A program made the translations under genes and the position numbers. From the IMG/VR virus record IMGVR_UViG_3300050343_000110: a stretch of DNA of 64,000 nucleotides; one strand, written 5' to 3'. The DNA comes from a virus. The notes beneath the pieces are model-generated. The model was given only the letters and a program-made list of their open reading frames with translations, was not told the origin of the DNA and did not search any database. The stretch's first letter is position 1; the number at the start of each line of letters is the position of its first letter. Positions 26,254 to 49,508 of the stretch are shown in pieces.

Positions 26254-27215
26254 AGAACTTTGCAAACTATATTACAGAACAAACTCTGTCTAAATCTGAC
26301 TTAGATGGAGTCGAAAAGTATGCAGATAGATTGTATGCGGCCGCTGGTATTGACGTTGAGTTTACCAGACATTTTCTTGACAGAGTAAATGACAGTCGTA
26401 ACAAGAAACAGATTACTGTGGCAGAACTTATTCGTATGTTTAAACAGTCTTATAAAAAGTTTGGTAAGAAGATTGCGAAACTTGGCCCTGATGCAGAGGC
26501 GGTATTAAATGATATGCAAACAGATATCAATATGCCCTTTGTTCTCAAATGGGATGGTAAAGAGTTAGACTTAATTGCAAAGACAGTAATGAGAAAGAGA
26601 AACTTTGGAACAACGAATCCAAAGTTAAGTTTTGAAGAATTTGAATTCTTTCCTGAAAACTTACATGAAAGAATTGTGCTTCCTGAACCCCCTACAGATT
26701 TACAAAAAGAAGCAGACAAAGTAAAACAGATTATTGCGAATAGGACTCCAGAAGATGAACAGTCTATTCGTATTCACGATGAGAATTCATTTTACGCTAT
26801 TGACAAATATTGTGAAGAACATGGGTTATTATTTCACGATAGTGAGATGAAAGATATCGTGATGCAAGCAAAACCCACAATCAAATATTTTAAAGAACAT
26901 TTCAATATTGATAGACCTCACGAAGTTGATCCGTCTATCAAACCAATGTCTAGTACTACAAACAAGACTAGAGCCTATCCAAGTGGACACGCAACTCAAT
27001 CAATGTTAGTTGGGTTGTACGTTTCTGCAAAGTTTCCAGAACATGAGGATGGTATAATCAGGGCCGCAAAAGAATGTGGACTTGGTAGAGTGAAAGCAGG
27101 ATTTCATTATCTTGCAGATTATGTCGCTGGCAATTTACTTGCAGAAAAAATGTTCCTAGTTATGAACAAAGATAACTATGGTAAATATATAAAGGAAGAA
27201 ATTGATGGCGCCTAG
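26250..27215 (+). CDS. Two-domain protein with C-terminal PAP2 / class A acid phosphatase
   Basis: K..F..RP, YPSGH, R..AGFHY..D; N-terminus MKNFANYITE. Confidence 0.8.
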   Translation: MKNFANYITEQTLSKSDLDGVEKYADRLYAAAGIDVEFTRHFLDRVNDSRNKKQITVAELIRMFKQSYKKFGKKIAKLGPDAEAVLNDMQTDINMPFVLKWDGKELDLIAKTVMRKRNFGTTNPKLSFEEFEFFPENLHERIVLPEPPTDLQKEADKVKQIIANRTPEDEQSIRIHDENSFYAIDKYCEEHGLLFHDSEMKDIVMQAKPTIKYFKEHFNIDRPHEVDPSIKPMSSTTNKTRAYPSGHATQSMLVGLYVSAKFPEHEDGIIRAAKECGLGRVKAGFHYLADYVAGNLLAEKMFLVMNKDNYGKYIKEEIDGA

Positions 27216-28272
27216 AAATCACAAACAGTGGAAATCAGTTCCAAACGTAGAATACATTTCAAGTGAATGTTATAATAACAACAGCATATTCCAACAAGAA
27301 CAAGAACTAATCTTCAGTAAAGTTTGGATTCCTATGTGTCACATCAGTGAGATGTATGAAAAGGGAAACTATAGAACAACGCAAATAGCAGGACAAAATG
27401 TTATTGCATATAATACAGGGGAACTTGGTGCAAGAGCATTTATCAATAATGGGCCTCAGATGCCTTCTGGTAAACTGTGGAATGATGATACCTTTGGTAG
27501 AGAACTGCATTGTGAAATAAAACATGGTGGTATGGTTTGGGTTACACTAGACCCTAATCCAACACAGAGTGTGGATGAATGGACTGCTGGTGCATTTGAT
27601 TGTATTGCAGAAGCAATTGACACAGAAGAGATGGAAGTATTCCACTACCACAAAGCCATTATAAATACAAACTACAAGTTATGGCACGATACTAACTCTG
27701 AGTTCTACCACGACTTTATGCACTACTTTAATCGTGTGTCTGGATTCAATGATGAGTATTTTGCTAGAAAAAATATCCCTTTCGACAATGGCCACGTTAA
27801 TGTTAGTTCATTTACAGTCAACTACGAAGAGTACGATGGGTTTGAGGATAGAGGCGAACTTAGTTTCCCTAACCTCCCCCCTAATCAATGGTACATGGTT
27901 GACTTATTTCCTGGCTTTAACTTTAATCTTAGAGGGAGTGCTTATAGAAGCGATAGTGTTACGCCTCTGGGCCCGAATGAAGTTCTTATAGAATTTCGTG
28001 GATATGGATTAAGAAAAGACACAAAAGAAGAAAGACAGACTAGAATTAAACATCATAATTCTATCTGGGGCCCGTTTGGTAGAAATCTCCATGAAGATTT
28101 GATTGGAGTTGCTGGACAGGGAACGACTATGCGTGAAGGAACAGAAGCACGAAATATCCTACACGGTAGACATGAGAATGGAACTATCCACGATGAAGTG
28201 GGTATGAGACATTACTATGGTGCATGGGGTGATATGCTGGGTGTAAATCCAGAACAACCTCTCGCCGCATAA
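27205..28272 (+). CDS. Ring-hydroxylating oxygenase alpha subunit, MsmA (methanesulfonate monooxygenase)-like, lacking the Rieske motif
   Basis: EQELIFSKVW..CH.SE, NYKLWHDTNSEFYHDFMH, WGPFGRNLHEDL, IHDE.GMRH; no CxH/CxxH. Confidence 0.8.
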   Translation: MAPRNHKQWKSVPNVEYISSECYNNNSIFQQEQELIFSKVWIPMCHISEMYEKGNYRTTQIAGQNVIAYNTGELGARAFINNGPQMPSGKLWNDDTFGRELHCEIKHGGMVWVTLDPNPTQSVDEWTAGAFDCIAEAIDTEEMEVFHYHKAIINTNYKLWHDTNSEFYHDFMHYFNRVSGFNDEYFARKNIPFDNGHVNVSSFTVNYEEYDGFEDRGELSFPNLPPNQWYMVDLFPGFNFNLRGSAYRSDSVTPLGPNEVLIEFRGYGLRKDTKEERQTRIKHHNSIWGPFGRNLHEDLIGVAGQGTTMREGTEARNILHGRHENGTIHDEVGMRHYYGAWGDMLGVNPEQPLAA

Positions 28273-31417: not shown

Positions 31418-33268
31418 ATGGCCCTTGAGAACGTAGTAACATTCCCAAGTGCTGAGGAAAGTGGTCTTTCACACCTTGGCATTACAATTGACAAAAGATA
31501 GAGACAAAGATTTATCAGAACAAGCATACAAACTACTCAAGGACTATTATTGTAACGAAAATGAAAATTCACCACAACAGGCATATGCACGAGCAGCAGT
31601 TGCATATTGTGATGGACGATTTAGAACTTGCACAAAGAATTTATGATGCAGTATCCAAAGGTTGGTTCATGTTTGCATCACCAGTATTATCGAATGCACC
31701 AATGCCTGGGCAGAAAGCAAGAGCATTACCTATTTCGTGTTTTTTAACTTATGTACCAGATTCACTTGGAAGGACTTATTGACCACTCAGCAGAGTTGCG
31801 TTGGTTGTCAGTCAAGGGTGGTGGTGTCGGTGGACACTGGAGTGATATTCGTGCAATCTCTGACAAAGCACCAGGCCCGATGCCATTTCTTGCATACCGT
31901 AGATGCAGACATGACTGCATACAGACAGGGTAAGACAAGGAAAGGTTCTTACGCCGCATACATGGATGTATCACATCCAGACATCATTGAATTCTTAAAC
32001 ATGAGAGTACCAACTGGTGATGTGAACCGTAAGAACCTTAACTTGCACCATGCGATTAACATTACTGATTCGTTTATGCGAGCAGTAGAACGAAATGAGA
32101 TGGTGGGATTTGAAAGACCCTAATGATGACACAGTTCGTGAATCAATGCCTGCAAGGACGTTATGGCAACAAATTCTAGAAGTAAGATATCGTACAGGTG
32201 AACCATATCTAAACTTTATCGACACTGCTAATCGTGCAGCTTGCCACATACAATGAAAGCGAAAGGATTAAAGATTCATGGTTCTAATCTATGTAACGAA
32301 ATTCATCTACCAACATCTGAAGACAGAACTGCTGTATGCTGTCTTTCTTCAGTCAATTTGGAAAATATGACGATTGGAAAGACACACAAATGATTCGTGA
32401 CCTTGTTCGTTTCTTGGACAATGTACTACAGTTCTTTATTGACAATGCACCAGATGATATTAGTCGTGCAAGATATTCTGCTGACCACAAGAGCGTAGTC
32501 TATTGGTCTTGGTGCGATGGGTTGGCATTCGTCTCTTAAACAAGAAGAGAATTCCATTTGATGGTGGTCAAGCAAGACGTATGGAATGCAGTCAAGTGTT
32601 TCAACATATTCAAAAACAAGCAGTTGCAGAAGAGTCTTAGATGATGGGTATGATAAAAGGGGTGAGGCACCAGACATGGAAGGTACTGGTAGACGTAATG
32701 CACATCTACTTGCAATCGCTCCGAATGCAAACAGTTCTATTATCTGTGGTACTTCACCATCAATTGAACCATTGAAAGCAAATGCATATACACATAGAAC
32801 CAGAGCAGGGTCACACTTAGTAAAGAACAAGTATCTTGCAGAAGAACTTGATAAGATTGATAAGAATACAGATAGAGGTATGGAACGACATTATTACTAA
32901 TGGTGGTTCTGTACAACACTTAAAGTTTTTATCTGATGAGGTCAAAGAAGTTTTCAAAACTGCTATTGAAGTTGACCAGAATAAACTAGTAGAACAGGGT
33001 GGTGACAGACAAAGAATTCTTATGTCAAGGTCAATCCCTAAATCTATTCTTCCCTGCTGGTGCAGAGAAAAAGTATCTACATCAAGTACACTACAACGCA
33101 TGGAAGTCTGGTTGTAAAGGTCTTTACTATTTAAGAACTGAAACTAGTCAACGTGCAGAGAATGTATCTGAAAAGGTAGAAAGGAATGCATTGAAAGACT
33201 ATGAGTCACAAGCTGTTTGCGACATCACTGCACAATCGCAAGATGAGTGTGTAGCGTGTCAAGGGTAG
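31418..33268 (+). CDS. nrdA: Ribonucleotide reductase class I alpha subunit (many frameshifts)
   Basis: FASPVLSN, PISCF, GGGVG, GSNLCNEI, AIAPNANSS, SPSIEP, KGLYYLR, C-terminal CVACQG. Confidence 0.9.
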
Positions 33269-33546
33269 TTCAGTTAACAGACAGTGCAAGAGAATATTTA
33301 AAACAAGTAGGTAAACCAAACGTATCACTATCTGTAAAGGGTGGTGGTTGTTCTGGATTCCAATATGAGTGGGGGGTGACAGACAAATCTCCCACAATAG
33401 AAAATTTATGGTTAGACCCCATGGCAGAGATGTTTGTGTTTGGTTGTACAGTAGACTATGTAGAAGAACTAGGTGGTTCTTATTTAAAAGTAATTAACCC
33501 AAACGCAACTGCATCGTGTGGTTGTGGTGAAAGTTTCGCAGTTTAG
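33247..33546 (+). CDS. HesB/IscA-family Fe-S carrier protein (start uncertain)
   Basis: GGGCSGFQY, NPNATASCGCGESF. Confidence 0.9.
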   Translation: MCSVSRVVQLTDSAREYLKQVGKPNVSLSVKGGGCSGFQYEWGVTDKSPTIENLWLDPMAEMFVFGCTVDYVEELGGSYLKVINPNATASCGCGESFAV

Positions 33547-33558
33547 GAGAAAGAAAAA

Positions 33559-34809
33559 ATGGAAATAAGAGTAGTAAGTAAGTCAGATTGTCCTTTTTGC
33601 AAAATGGCAAAAACATGGTTTGAAGATCATGGATTCCCATATGAAGAAAATTTGATGGATAATGAAGAAGAAAGACTTGCATTCTATCAATCATTGACAA
33701 ATGGAGTCAATGAAATTGTAGGAAAGTCAGATAGAGTTCGTAGAGTAAATTCAGTACCACAGATTTTTATTGATGGTAAACGTATCGGTGGATATGATGA
33801 GTTGATGAAAATGGCTCCTGAGCTCTTGAAGAAGAGAAGTTCTGGTGGACTGATGAAGTTCTCAGAAACCTACAAACCATTTCATTATCCTTGGGCTGTT
33901 GAGATTACAACAAGACACGAGAAGGTACATTGGATTGAAGATGAATTAGATTTATCAGAGGACGTTGCAGATTGGAAGTCTGGTAAGGTTAGTGAAGTTG
34001 AGAAAGAATATATCACCAACATTCTAAGACTGTTTACACAGTCAGATGTTGCAGTAGGACAGAACTATTATGACCAACTTATTCCTAAATTCAAGAACAA
34101 CGAAGTACGCAATATGCTTGGTTCGTTTGCGAATAGAGAAGCTATTCACCAACGTGCATATGCACTTCTTAATGAGACACTTGGGTTATCTGATGCCGAG
34201 TATCACGCCTTTCTAGAATACCAAGAGATGGCAGACAAGATTGAGTTTATGATGGATAGTGATCCTAACACTGTTCGTGGACTTGGACTTGCAATGGCAA
34301 AGTCAGTGATGAATGAGGGTGTCGCTCTCTTTGCATCATTCGTGATGTTGTTGAACTTCCAGCGTTACGGTAAGATGAAGGGTATGGGTAAGGTTGTTGA
34401 ATGGTCAATCAGAGATGAATCAATTCACGTTGAGGGTATTGCAAGATTGTTCAAAGCATATTGTGCAGAACATCCTCGTATTGTTGACGATGAATTCAAG
34501 GGTATGATTTATGAGATGGCCAGACAGGCAGTCAAATTAGAAGATGCCTTTGTTGACCTTGCATATAAACTTGGTGACATTGAAGGACTAGAACAGGCAG
34601 AAGTAAAAGAGTATTGTCGGTATATTACAGACAGACGTTTGCTTCAACTAGGATTGAAACCAAACTTCAAGGTAAAAGAGAATCCTTTGACTTGGTTAGA
34701 GTGGGTACTCAATGGTGCAGATCATACCAACTTCTTTGAGAACAGAGTGACAGAATACGAAGTCGCTGGACTTAATGGTAAGTGGGATGACGTTTATGAG
34801 GCCGCCTAA
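33559..34809 (+). CDS. nrdB: Glutaredoxin-NrdB fusion (RNR beta subunit)
   Basis: CPFC..VPQIFIDG..IGGY, then EAIH, DESIH, NFFE.RVTEY. Confidence 0.95.
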   Translation: MEIRVVSKSDCPFCKMAKTWFEDHGFPYEENLMDNEEERLAFYQSLTNGVNEIVGKSDRVRRVNSVPQIFIDGKRIGGYDELMKMAPELLKKRSSGGLMKFSETYKPFHYPWAVEITTRHEKVHWIEDELDLSEDVADWKSGKVSEVEKEYITNILRLFTQSDVAVGQNYYDQLIPKFKNNEVRNMLGSFANREAIHQRAYALLNETLGLSDAEYHAFLEYQEMADKIEFMMDSDPNTVRGLGLAMAKSVMNEGVALFASFVMLLNFQRYGKMKGMGKVVEWSIRDESIHVEGIARLFKAYCAEHPRIVDDEFKGMIYEMARQAVKLEDAFVDLAYKLGDIEGLEQAEVKEYCRYITDRRLLQLGLKPNFKVKENPLTWLEWVLNGADHTNFFENRVTEYEVAGLNGKWDDVYEAA

Positions 34810-48768: not shown

Positions 48769-49126
48769 TGGGAGTGCTTTGGCTGCGCCAGAGGACTATA
48801 ATACACCAGAACCAGAAACACCACCTCAAGTGTTTCGTTCAGACAAACCAGTAACTTGTACTACTGATTCATATGATGAAGTAAAGCAAAACTTTCTAGA
48901 ATCACATGGTGAAGTTGGTTTTATGAGATACATAAGTGATAGTAAAACTGCTATTGAAATAATTGGTAATGTAGACACAGGAACTATTACTATCTTAGAA
49001 TTTATACCATCAAATAAATATACTTGTTTTATTTCTGTTGGTAGAGGATTAGAGGTAAACAGTAATATTTTTGATAAGGCAAAACAAGGTATTGAAACTA
49101 ACTTACTTAAATCTATTGACTTGTAA
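48722..49126 (+). CDS. Exported hypothetical protein
   Basis: Signal peptide ending ALA; KPVTC...TC...G. Confidence 0.6.
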   Translation: MKSWKKALTLSALLFSGSALAAPEDYNTPEPETPPQVFRSDKPVTCTTDSYDEVKQNFLESHGEVGFMRYISDSKTAIEIIGNVDTGTITILEFIPSNKYTCFISVGRGLEVNSNIFDKAKQGIETNLLKSIDL

Positions 49127-49149
49127 ACACCACTATGGTATAAATATAG

Positions 49150-49508
49150 TACAGTTTGTTGATACAATCTGAAAGCTAGACAGGACTTGGGGGCAGTACC
49201 CAACGCCTCCACCATAATTACTTGAGGACAATATGTTTGATAGACTAACAGAGTTTTTTATAAAACTGTTTAAGATACAAGAAAAGACACCAGTAAGATA
49301 TCTATCTGGTGTTGGTAAATCAAGTAATTATGATGGGGGCGAACTAGGATCGACTGATGGTAATAGGAAAGAGTAGAGCTGTGGGATGGATGCCTAATAA
49401 TCCAAAAAAACTAAACGCAAACGATAACTTTGCACCTCAAGATTTTGCTCTAGCAGCATAATCGGATAGGGTTTCGGTAGGTTTCCTAGTAACAGAATAA
49501 CCTACCAC
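49150..49508 (+). ncRNA. ssrA: Two-piece (circularly permuted) tmRNA, alphaproteobacterial type
   Basis: Acceptor piece ends GGGGCAGTACCC..GCCTCCACCA (49214); the 5' end GGGGGCGAA..GGATCGAC lies downstream (49335); tag ANDNFAPQDFALAA* at 49417-49461; 3' hairpin. Confidence 0.92.
49233..49376 (+). CDS. 47-aa ORF starting in the tmRNA intervening segment
   Basis: GAGGA RBS then MFDRLTEFFIKLFKIQEKTPVRYLSG... Confidence 0.4.
   Translation: MFDRLTEFFIKLFKIQEKTPVRYLSGVGKSSNYDGGELGSTDGNRKE

What the first reader, a model, noticed from the sequence alone, without database searches (positions are those of the whole stretch)
27205..28272. MsmA-like oxygenase alpha subunit with the Rieske [2Fe-2S] loop precisely deleted
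Seen: the catalytic domain is intact (EFYHDFMH, HEDL: a 2-His-1-Asp iron site plus the bridging acidic residue). Between RAFIN and ELHCEIKHGGMVWV there are only ~17 residues and no CxH/CxxH, where a ~55-60 aa cluster-binding segment normally sits. The ORF is otherwise clean and in frame. It resembles methanesulfonate monooxygenase MsmA (recalled similarity), and no beta subunit, ferredoxin or reductase is nearby. Known: in these trimers the Rieske centre of one subunit feeds the iron of its neighbour. Inference: the phage subunit joins host trimers as an iron-sparing catalytic subunit or a dominant-negative modulator of C1-sulfur (DMS-derived) metabolism.
Basis: partly seen in the sequence, partly recalled or inferred. 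Interest (0 to 1): 0.8.

Follow-up and report, generated by a model that had tools for sequence, protein, structure and literature searches.

The report
Phage half of a split methanesulfonate oxygenase
A marine phage carries only the iron-site half of a methanesulfonate-oxidising enzyme; the gene and its missing iron-sulfur motif were already published, but in SAR116 bacteria the missing half sits on a second, catalytically dead copy fused to a reductase, which suggests how the phage protein could work.

Summary
ORF 27205-28272 (355 aa) is an intact MsmA-clade oxygenase alpha subunit. It has no CxH/CxxH cluster ligands but keeps the full iron site (E166, H169, H173, D298).

It is neither an artefact nor a pseudogene. 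All 103 Rieske-less copies examined are intact. dN/dS is about 0.07 overall and about 0.9 only in the 18-residue linker that replaces the cluster fingers.

It is not new: this is the 'msmA' AMG of phage HMO-2011 (70% identity), and Henriques & De Marco (2015) already reported the missing motif.

What I add: the deletion is not phage-specific. SAR116 chromosomes, apparently including the cultured host IMCC1322, carry the orthologue (78-80% identity) inside their msm operon, beside a complementary paralogue. That paralogue keeps the MsmA-type CPH-X26-CMFH Rieske motif, has lost all iron ligands (10/10) and is fused to a flavin reductase. Fourteen of 17 MsmA-bearing genomes of the order hold both halves; none pairs the Rieske-less gene with a canonical MsmA.

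So the phage most likely supplies the catalytic half of a split enzyme, as in NdmC/NdmD. The iron-sparing and dominant-negative readings are not supported.

This window is a Melnitz-type myophage of unknown host. The scan reached the same reading before on other DNA (e1-5801447).

The parts
27205..28272 (+). CDS, 355 aa: Rieske-less MsmA-clade oxygenase alpha subunit (catalytic half)
   Evidence: ORF; start fixed at the ATG by 19 relatives with a stop codon just upstream; 69.9% identical to HMO-2011 gp61 and 78-80% to SAR116 chromosomal orthologues; AF2 pLDDT 88.6, best PDB matches are Rieske oxygenase alpha subunits at TM 0.67-0.74
27192..27198 (+). Shine-Dalgarno-like AAGGAAG, 6 nt before the ATG; the gene overlaps the end of the upstream PAP2-domain gene (stop at 27215)
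   Evidence: sequence read directly; ORF list
27205..27447 (+). Residues 1-81: retained basal part of the former Rieske domain (beta strands, no cluster ligands)
   Evidence: PDB/NCBIfam hits to the first half of Rieske domains; 38% identity to Filomicrobium MsmA; dN/dS 0.15; strands with pLDDT 84-98
27448..27501 (+). Residues 82-99 (NGPQMPSGKLWNDDTFGR): linker replacing about 64 residues of cluster-binding fingers (CxH-X26-CxxH region of MsmA); only P87 and G89 conserved
   Evidence: alignments A1 and A3; dN/dS about 0.9 and column compositions
27625..28239 (+). Residues 141-345: Ring_hydroxyl_A catalytic domain
   Evidence: PF00848, E 3e-7, above the gathering score; 73% identity to Filomicrobium MsmA over residues 120-355; dN/dS 0.04
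27700..27723 (+). EFYHDFMH: bridging Glu166 and iron ligands His169 and His173
   Evidence: kept in 103/103 Rieske-less and 19/19 canonical copies, lost in 10/10 fusion paralogues
28084..28101 (+). NLHEDL: third iron ligand Asp298
   Evidence: kept in 103/103 Rieske-less copies; removed by a 16-residue deletion in the fusion paralogues

Best explanation
The gene encodes the catalytic (mononuclear-iron) half of a two-polypeptide methanesulfonate monooxygenase.

In SAR116 bacteria the ancestral MsmA has been replaced by two complementary paralogues in one operon. The first, alpha', keeps the MsmA-type Rieske [2Fe-2S] domain, has a dead but still folded catalytic domain, and is fused to an NAD(P)H flavin reductase. 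The second, alpha'', has lost the cluster fingers but keeps the iron site.

The inferred electron path is NAD(P)H, then the reductase domain, then the MsmC-like Rieske ferredoxin, then the alpha' Rieske cluster, then (through the conserved bridging Glu166) the iron of a neighbouring alpha''. There methanesulfonate would be split into sulfite and formaldehyde.

The phage carries only alpha''. During infection it would add or replace the catalytic, probably damage-prone, subunit and use the host's alpha'-reductase, beta subunit and ferredoxin, keeping sulfur/C1 oxidation going for phage production.

Shown: the anatomy, the complementarity, the co-occurrence, the selection and the phylogeny. Inferred: physical assembly, the electron path, the substrate, the benefit to the phage, and that this phage's unknown host has the partner.
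For: The gene is real and selected. 82/82 viral copies are intact. dN/dS is 0.07 overall and 0.04 in the catalytic domain.

It belongs to the MsmA clade. It nests within MsmA from canonical msmABCD operons, with 73% catalytic-domain identity.

The host orthologue sits in an operon with an MsmE-like binding protein, a beta subunit, a Rieske ferredoxin, the TauE sulfite exporter and C1-folate genes.

The ligand census is perfectly complementary: the fusion keeps C,H,C,H in 10/10 copies and E,H,H,D in 0/10; the Rieske-less form shows the reverse in 103/103; canonical MsmA keeps all eight in 19/19.

Of 192 genomes of the order, 14 hold both halves, one holds only a canonical MsmA, and none pairs the Rieske-less gene with a canonical one.

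The bridging Glu is retained in every Rieske-less copy. Its established role in Rieske oxygenases is to couple the iron site to a neighbouring subunit's Rieske His.

The fusion's dead catalytic core is still constrained (dN/dS 0.17-0.22) and is predicted to fold.

There is an experimental precedent: NdmC lacks the Rieske cluster and uses one fused to the reductase NdmD (PMC4408171).
Against: No biochemical data exist for either half. MSA oxidation by SAR116 or by this arrangement has not been shown in what I could read.

The window holds no partner genes and its host is unknown. The nearest isolate, Melnitz, infects an OM43 methylophile, and I found Rieske-less or fusion genes only in SAR116-type genomes. 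The only host clue is an alphaproteobacterial-type tmRNA.

The gene occurs in very diverse phage contexts, which would also fit a partner-independent function.

dS is saturated, so the dN/dS values are approximate. Few fusion pairs were usable.

The heteromer could not be modelled with the tools at hand.
Confidence: 0.6

Rival explanations
1. Stand-alone enzyme. The Rieske-less protein works without any Rieske-bearing alpha'. It takes electrons directly from a soluble ferredoxin or another donor, or it catalyses a reaction that needs no external electrons.
For: Phages carry it alone, in many unrelated genomic contexts. The window phage's nearest isolate infects OM43, where I found no partner. 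Two phage lineages encode IscA-type Fe-S carriers near or beside it, which could serve some other donor.
Against: The bridging Glu is kept in 103/103 copies. In cellular genomes the gene co-occurs with the fusion in 14 genomes and lies in the same operon. The fusion keeps a highly constrained Rieske domain (dN/dS 0.02) that would otherwise have no acceptor.
Confidence: 0.13
2. Same split architecture, but the substrate is not methanesulfonate. It would be another small sulfonate or C1-sulfur compound.
For: No activity data exist. In IMCC1322 and two other loci a DMSO-reductase-type dmsABC cluster is inserted in the operon (PMC8547437). According to PMC4433239, all strains proven to grow on MSA have the intact long-spacer MsmA.
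Against: The catalytic domain is 73% identical to MsmA of Filomicrobium, a genus in which MSA-degrading strains carry this operon. The binding protein is 91% identical between the split operon (L089) and a canonical Puniceispirillales operon (L148). TauE and C1-folate genes follow the operon.
Confidence: 0.15
3. Dominant-negative or regulatory subunit. The phage protein poisons or throttles the host oxygenase.
For: It lacks one redox centre and arrives without partners.
Against: It is the orthologue of the host's own catalytic subunit, not a crippled version of it. All catalytic residues are invariant and the catalytic domain has dN/dS 0.04.
Confidence: 0.04
4. Pseudogene or assembly artefact.
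For: The same window contains an nrdA gene broken into at least six frame segments, so local sequence quality or gene decay is a fair concern.
Against: The reading frame is intact here and in 81 other viral loci from independent samples, and in 18 host genomes. The same gap pattern occurs in all of them, and purifying selection is strong.
Confidence: 0.01

Closest known systems
Puniceispirillum phage HMO-2011 gp61 (YP_008320323, annotated 'methanesulfonate monooxygenase'); the viral 'msmA' AMG family
   Same: Full-length homologue, 69.9% identity, same length, same missing Rieske motif and same iron site. The family is reported as a marine-only AMG under purifying selection (Kieft et al. 2021). 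The missing motif was published in PMC4433239.
   Different: Different phage backbone: HMO-2011 is a 55-kb genome, whereas this window belongs to a Melnitz-related T4-like myophage. Melnitz itself lacks the gene. The flanking genes are unrelated.
Rieske-less MsmA paralogue in the msm operon of SAR116 bacteria (L163 13561-14670, on a 2,753,527-bp contig that matches the genome size of Ca. Puniceispirillum marinum IMCC1322 as I recall it; L089 8001-9095)
   Same: 78-80% identical, same architecture, one clade.
   Different: The chromosomal copy sits beside its presumed partners (alpha'-reductase fusion, beta subunit, Rieske ferredoxin, binding protein, TauE). The phage copy is alone. The phage copy's GC3 (32%) has drifted to phage composition.
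MsmA, alpha subunit of methanesulfonate monooxygenase MsmABCD (Methylosulfonomonas methylovora M2; Filomicrobium)
   Same: Nested in the same clade. The catalytic domain is 73% identical, with the same E-x2-H-x3-H ... D iron site.
   Different: MsmA carries the family-specific CXH-X26-CXXH Rieske motif. Here all four ligands and about 46 residues are absent.
NdmC/NdmD/NdmE N7-demethylase of Pseudomonas putida CBB5
   Same: A non-heme iron oxygenase without a Rieske cluster that depends on a Rieske domain fused to its reductase. [quoted passage not shown]
   Different: A different branch of the superfamily. NdmD is an FNR-type reductase with an extra isolated Rieske domain, whereas the SAR116 partner is a whole, catalytically dead alpha subunit fused to a glutathione-reductase-type flavoprotein (Pyr_redox_2 + Reductase_C). 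A separate Rieske ferredoxin and a beta subunit are kept. No GST-like NdmE was found; instead a DUF5996-like ORF precedes alpha''. No phage involvement is reported for Ndm.

Membership tests
Rieske non-heme iron oxygenase alpha subunit | C-terminal catalytic domain (Pfam PF00848, helix-grip fold) | tested here: met
   PF00848 at 30.9 bits, above the cut-off of 24.9. The AF2 model matches TPADO, CntA, Stc2 and NagG alpha subunits at TM 0.67-0.74.
Rieske non-heme iron oxygenase alpha subunit | 2-His-1-carboxylate iron site plus bridging acidic residue three positions before the first His | tested here: met
   E166, H169, H173 and D298 are aligned to the canonical positions and invariant in 103 Rieske-less copies.
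Rieske non-heme iron oxygenase alpha subunit | N-terminal Rieske [2Fe-2S] domain with CxH...CxxH ligands | tested here: not met
   No motif in this copy or in 81 other viral copies. All four ligand columns are gaps or non-ligand residues. No PF00355 hit.
MsmA (methanesulfonate monooxygenase large subunit) | Phylogenetic placement within MsmA of msmABCD operons | tested here: met
   A clade with SH-aLRT 100 unites canonical MsmA, the fusion paralogues and the Rieske-less proteins, to the exclusion of other Rieske oxygenases.
MsmA (methanesulfonate monooxygenase large subunit) | CXH-X26-CXXH long-spacer Rieske motif (the family signature according to PMC4433239) | tested here: not met
   Absent here. 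Present in canonical MsmA (19/19) and in the SAR116 fusion paralogue (10/10).
MsmA (methanesulfonate monooxygenase large subunit) | Encoded with msmB, msmC, a reductase and the msmEFGH transporter | tested here: not met
   None is in the 64-kb window. The SAR116 chromosomal orthologue does sit in such an operon.
MsmA (methanesulfonate monooxygenase large subunit) | NADH-dependent oxidation of methanesulfonate to sulfite and formaldehyde | not testable with these tools
   Needs an enzyme assay.
Split Rieske oxygenase of the NdmC/NdmD kind | Oxygenase subunit with an iron site but no Rieske cluster | tested here: met
Split Rieske oxygenase of the NdmC/NdmD kind | Compensating Rieske domain fused to the reductase | tested here: met
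   Met in the host, not in the phage. A protein of 795-857 aa with PF00355 + Pyr_redox_2 + Reductase_C is present in ten SAR116-type loci. It co-occurs with the Rieske-less gene in 14 genomes.
Split Rieske oxygenase of the NdmC/NdmD kind | GST-like structural adaptor (NdmE) and demonstrated complex | tested here: inconclusive
   No GST-like gene was seen. A conserved 274-aa ORF (DUF5996-like by ESM Atlas; no Pfam, NCBIfam or PDB hit) precedes the Rieske-less gene in host operons. Complex formation is untested.

The most novel reading that the evidence does not exclude
The Rieske-less catalytic subunit arose, or at least diversified, in phages and was later captured by the SAR116 chromosome. 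Once it was there, the resident MsmA was free to lose its iron site and become a Rieske-plus-reductase electron module. On this reading a phage AMG drove the splitting of a host enzyme, and alpha'/alpha'' would be a natural, evolution-made dissection of inter-subunit electron transfer in Rieske oxygenases. In my tree the host copies form one shallow clade nested among deeper viral lineages (P0121, HMO-2011). An AU test rejects a tree with all viral copies as one clade (p about 1e-4). Long viral branches, post-hoc grouping and unsampled hosts could still produce this pattern.
Probability: 0.2. Interest if true: 0.8.

Novelty: new variant of a known kind. Interest (0 to 1): 0.55.

Why it matters
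Viral 'msmA' is widespread in marine viromes and is counted in sulfur-cycle AMG surveys as if it were a complete methanesulfonate monooxygenase subunit.

This analysis says it is only the iron-site half of a split enzyme. It would work only in hosts that supply the Rieske-plus-reductase paralogue. In the genome collection scanned such hosts were found only among SAR116-type genomes. That narrows the hosts and the biogeochemical meaning of the gene. It also gives a host-prediction marker for unrelated phage backbones, here a Melnitz-type myophage.

For enzymologists, the complementary alpha'/alpha'' pair is a natural experiment on cross-subunit electron transfer. It would be a second, independently evolved case after NdmCDE of a Rieske centre moved onto the reductase, with the twist that a whole dead alpha subunit is retained, probably as a scaffold.

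A phage carrying only the catalytic, probably damage-prone, subunit parallels cyanophage psbA. That parallel is my inference.

Tried and rejected
1. A clade-specific new metal site at H102-C103-E104-x-x-H107 just after the linker. Rejected: the SAR116 orthologues read H-S-G-V-K-H, and canonical MsmA has R-C-E-V-K-F there.

2. PHROGs: no family.

3. Typing the 80 viral loci as HMO-type or Melnitz-type by neighbours. Most assignments rest on a single weak neighbour (an HMO gp62-like gene that the window also has elsewhere). I claim only that about ten loci are syntenic with the window and that many share nothing with either reference.

4. IscA-like gene as a regular neighbour: found next to the gene only in L162. 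The window has its own divergent IscA-type gene 5 kb away. The link is not established.

5. ARAGORN did not find the tmRNA; Rfam did.

6. Kang et al. 2013 (PMC3725092) is not held in the library, so I could not check what it says about the Rieske domain or the host paralogues.

7. orf274: no Pfam, NCBIfam or PDB match.

8. The whole genome of the window is not held, so the rest of the phage could not be searched for partners.

9. The position of the Rieske-less clade relative to the fusion clade is unresolved (polytomy, support 87-91). A single duplication within SAR116 is therefore plausible but not shown.
Full report
OBSERVATION

The window has an uninterrupted ORF at 27202..28272 on the + strand. 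In 19 related viral copies the codon that precedes the ATG is a stop, so translation starts at ATG 27205 (355 aa), six bases after AAGGAAG.

Pfam recognises only the catalytic domain of ring-hydroxylating alpha subunits (PF00848, residues 141-345). NCBIfam and PDB sequence searches match only residues ~18-86 to the first half of Rieske domains of CntA, anthranilate dioxygenase and similar enzymes. Those matches stop where the first Cys-x-His should be.

The closest Rieske-bearing relatives were aligned. They show that 18 residues (NGPQMPSGKLWNDDTFGR, 82-99) stand in for about 64 residues of Filomicrobium MsmA, the stretch that holds CPH-X26-CMFH. The iron-site elements are all in place: EFYHDFMH (E166, H169, H173) and NLHEDL (D298).

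The alignment needs several gaps and a PSG remnant survives.

NOT AN ARTEFACT, NOT A PSEUDOGENE

A protein search found more than 1,200 homologues of about 355 aa carrying PF00848 only. All 82 copies examined are intact and none has a C.H...C..H pattern.

Pairwise Nei-Gojobori dN/dS values:
- 0.07 overall
- 0.04 in the catalytic domain
- 0.15 in the N-terminal remnant
- about 0.9 in the linker, where only P87 and G89 are conserved

dS is near saturation, so these ratios are approximate, but the contrast is unambiguous. An AlphaFold2 model is confident (pLDDT 88.6, pTM 0.89). Its best PDB matches are Rieske oxygenase alpha subunits (TPADO, CntA, Stc2, NagG; TM 0.67-0.74).

ALREADY KNOWN

The gene is the homologue (69.9% identity) of gp61 of Puniceispirillum phage HMO-2011, annotated 'methanesulfonate monooxygenase'. 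Henriques & De Marco 2015 (PMC4433239) state that the CXH-Xn-CXXH motif is absent from the HMO-2011 protein, from many GOS and virome 'MsmA' sequences, and from one of the two MsmA-annotated proteins of the host IMCC1322. Reviews and surveys treat viral msmA as a sulfur-cycle AMG, and Kieft et al. reported dN/dS below 1. The observation as such is therefore not new.

WHAT THE SURROUNDINGS AND RELATIVES ADD

A scan of one genome per prokaryotic species gave two classes of cellular relatives.

(i) Canonical MsmA of 403-408 aa (53-57% identity). These occur in Hyphomicrobiaceae, Filomicrobium, Xanthobacteraceae and others, in msmABCD operons next to the ABC transporter.

(ii) Rieske-less copies at 77-89% identity. 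Five of these lie on short phage-like contigs binned into MAGs. Seventeen lie in SAR116-type genomes, some on contigs of 200-600 kb.

In L089 the gene order is as follows:
- MsmE-like binding protein
- an 815-aa protein
- Ring_hydroxyl_B beta subunit
- Rieske ferredoxin
- a 274-aa ORF without Pfam match
- the Rieske-less alpha
- LysR
- TauE sulfite exporter
- PanB-like protein, formate-THF ligase and FolD

The 815-aa protein is an MsmA homologue with a perfect CPH-X26-CMFH motif. In its catalytic domain the iron motif and the NLHEDL segment are gone. It is followed by a Pyr_redox_2/Reductase_C flavoprotein.

There, 'SEFYHDFMHYHNR' reads 'IKFHQDFM----K' and a 16-residue deletion removes 'GRNLHEDL...'. 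A dmsABC cluster is inserted in that operon, in line with Roda-Garcia et al. 2021.

Ligand census:

| Group | Copies | Rieske Cys/His ligands kept | Bridging Glu, 2 His, Asp kept |
|---|---|---|---|
| Canonical MsmA | 19 | all four, 19/19 | all four, 19/19 |
| Fusion paralogue | 10 | all four, 10/10 | none, 0/10 |
| Rieske-less (80 viral, 18 host, 5 MAG-binned phage) | 103 | none | all four, 103/103 |

Among 192 genomes of the order, 17 have an MsmA-type gene. Fourteen hold both halves, one holds only a canonical MsmA, and two incomplete genomes show one half. No genome pairs the Rieske-less gene with a canonical MsmA.

In the fusion, the Rieske domain (dN/dS 0.02) and the reductase (0.05) are tightly constrained. 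The dead catalytic core is relaxed but still constrained (0.17-0.22, few usable pairs). AlphaFold still predicts its core sheet and helices, while the deleted ligand helix becomes a low-confidence loop. This fits a scaffold role.

PHYLOGENY

Canonical MsmA, the fusion N-terminal halves and the Rieske-less proteins form one clade (SH-aLRT 100) apart from other Rieske oxygenases. The fusion halves are one long-branched clade next to the canonical MsmA of a Puniceispirillales MAG (L148). That MAG's binding protein is 91% identical to the L089 one.

The Rieske-less proteins are one clade (100). Within it the SAR116 chromosomal copies form one shallow subclade (95), flanked by viral lineages, with HMO-2011 branching first and the viral P0121 lineage as sister. 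An AU test rejects a tree in which all viral copies form one clade (p about 1e-4). So either several host-to-phage transfers came from unsampled hosts, or a phage-to-host transfer occurred. Long viral branches and post-hoc grouping forbid a firm conclusion.

MECHANISM

In Rieske oxygenases, electrons pass from the Rieske cluster of one alpha subunit to the iron of the neighbouring one through a bridging carboxylate. This is established knowledge and is summarised in PMC12445004.

A pair of paralogues in which one keeps only the cluster and the other keeps only the iron site plus the bridging Glu is what complementary loss in a hetero-oligomer should look like. NdmCDE is an experimentally characterised precedent for a cluster-free oxygenase served by a Rieske domain fused to its reductase (PMC4408171).

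I therefore read the phage gene as the catalytic half of a split methanesulfonate monooxygenase that relies on the host's alpha'-reductase, beta subunit and Rieske ferredoxin. The substrate assignment rests on three points: 73% catalytic-domain identity to Filomicrobium MsmA, the conserved MsmE-like binding protein, and the TauE and C1-folate genes. It is not demonstrated.

The benefit to the phage is inference. It could be more flux, or replacement of a labile subunit after host shut-off.

THIS WINDOW'S PHAGE

The first 25 kb match Methylophilales phage Melnitz at 81% identity over about a quarter of their length. Melnitz has no copy of the gene. The gene overlaps the end of a PAP2-domain gene, and its neighbours are phage ORFs of unknown function. 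No partner gene is found in the 64 kb.

The gene's composition (GC 39.7%, GC3 32%) matches the phage (38.2%) rather than SAR116 (42-46%), so it is an old resident. The host is unknown. A permuted alphaproteobacterial-type tmRNA at 49112-49506 is a soft hint.

Cellular Rieske-less and fusion genes were found only in SAR116-type genomes. The model therefore predicts a SAR116-like host. If that prediction fails, the stand-alone rival gains weight.

VERDICT

The iron-sparing, dominant-negative and phage-specific readings are not supported.

I did not find the complementary host paralogue, or the split-enzyme reading it implies, in the literature I could search. An earlier follow-up of this scan reached the same reading on another genome (e1-5801447). 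I reached it independently before seeing that note.

Noticed in passing
window 31449-33268: The ribonucleotide reductase large-subunit gene is spread over at least six short ORFs in different frames. They match consecutive parts of PF00317/PF02867 (profile 2-39, 43-75; 53-132; 372-439; 437-485; 483-523). The nrdB-glutaredoxin fusion at 33559-34809 and other neighbours are intact. This could be a decayed gene, local sequencing errors or something unusual.
   Followed up: partly
window 33247-33546; L162 1072-1470: The window encodes a 99-aa IscA/HesB-type Fe-S carrier (PF01521, 38.1 bits) between nrdA and nrdB. In another phage lineage (P0121 on L162) an IscA/SufA-type gene (TIGR00049, 62.7 bits, above the cut-off) overlaps the start of its Rieske-less msmA. 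A functional link, such as supplying iron or clusters, is possible but untested.
   Followed up: partly
window 49112-49506: Permuted two-piece tmRNA of the alphaproteobacterial type (Rfam RF01849, 103.5 bits; RF04321, 101.8 bits). ARAGORN missed it. It hints at an alphaproteobacterial host for this Melnitz-type phage.
   Followed up: partly
L089 6921-7745; L163 12555-13385: A conserved ORF of 274-276 aa lies immediately upstream of the Rieske-less alpha in SAR116 operons. It has no Pfam, NCBIfam or PDB match and is DUF5996-like by ESM Atlas. Weaker homologues (27-40%) lie after msmD in some canonical operons. It could be an accessory or adaptor protein.
   Followed up: partly
L163 7912-12502 (also probably L095 and L100): A DMSO-reductase-type dmsABC cluster (molybdopterin subunit, 4Fe-4S subunit, DmsC anchor) is inserted inside the split msm operon, between the Rieske ferredoxin and orf276.
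   Followed up: no
L114 (Magnetovibrio sp. SP115 MAG), about 12928: A canonical full-length MsmA operon has no MsmD-type reductase. Instead a separate homologue (55%) of the flavin reductase that is fused to alpha' in SAR116 lies downstream. This may be an evolutionary intermediate.
   Followed up: no
P0131, P0155 (alignment A1): Other relatives in the wider MsmA-like superfamily have partly degenerate Rieske motifs. P0131 lacks the second Cys; P0155 lacks the second Cys-x-x-His and has an altered first pair. Loss of the cluster may therefore have happened more than once.
   Followed up: no
L082, L083, L098, L101, L102: Contigs of 7-48 kb assigned to Verrucomicrobiales, Endobugula, Hellea, Rickettsiales and Legionellales MAGs carry the Rieske-less gene without any msm neighbours, and their copies branch among viral sequences. 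They are probably phage contigs mis-binned into MAGs.
   Followed up: partly
window 57290 and 56614: Homologues of HMO-2011 gp62 (53%) and gp60 (26%), the two genes flanking msmA in HMO-2011, occur in this window about 29 kb away from the msmA-like gene.
   Followed up: no
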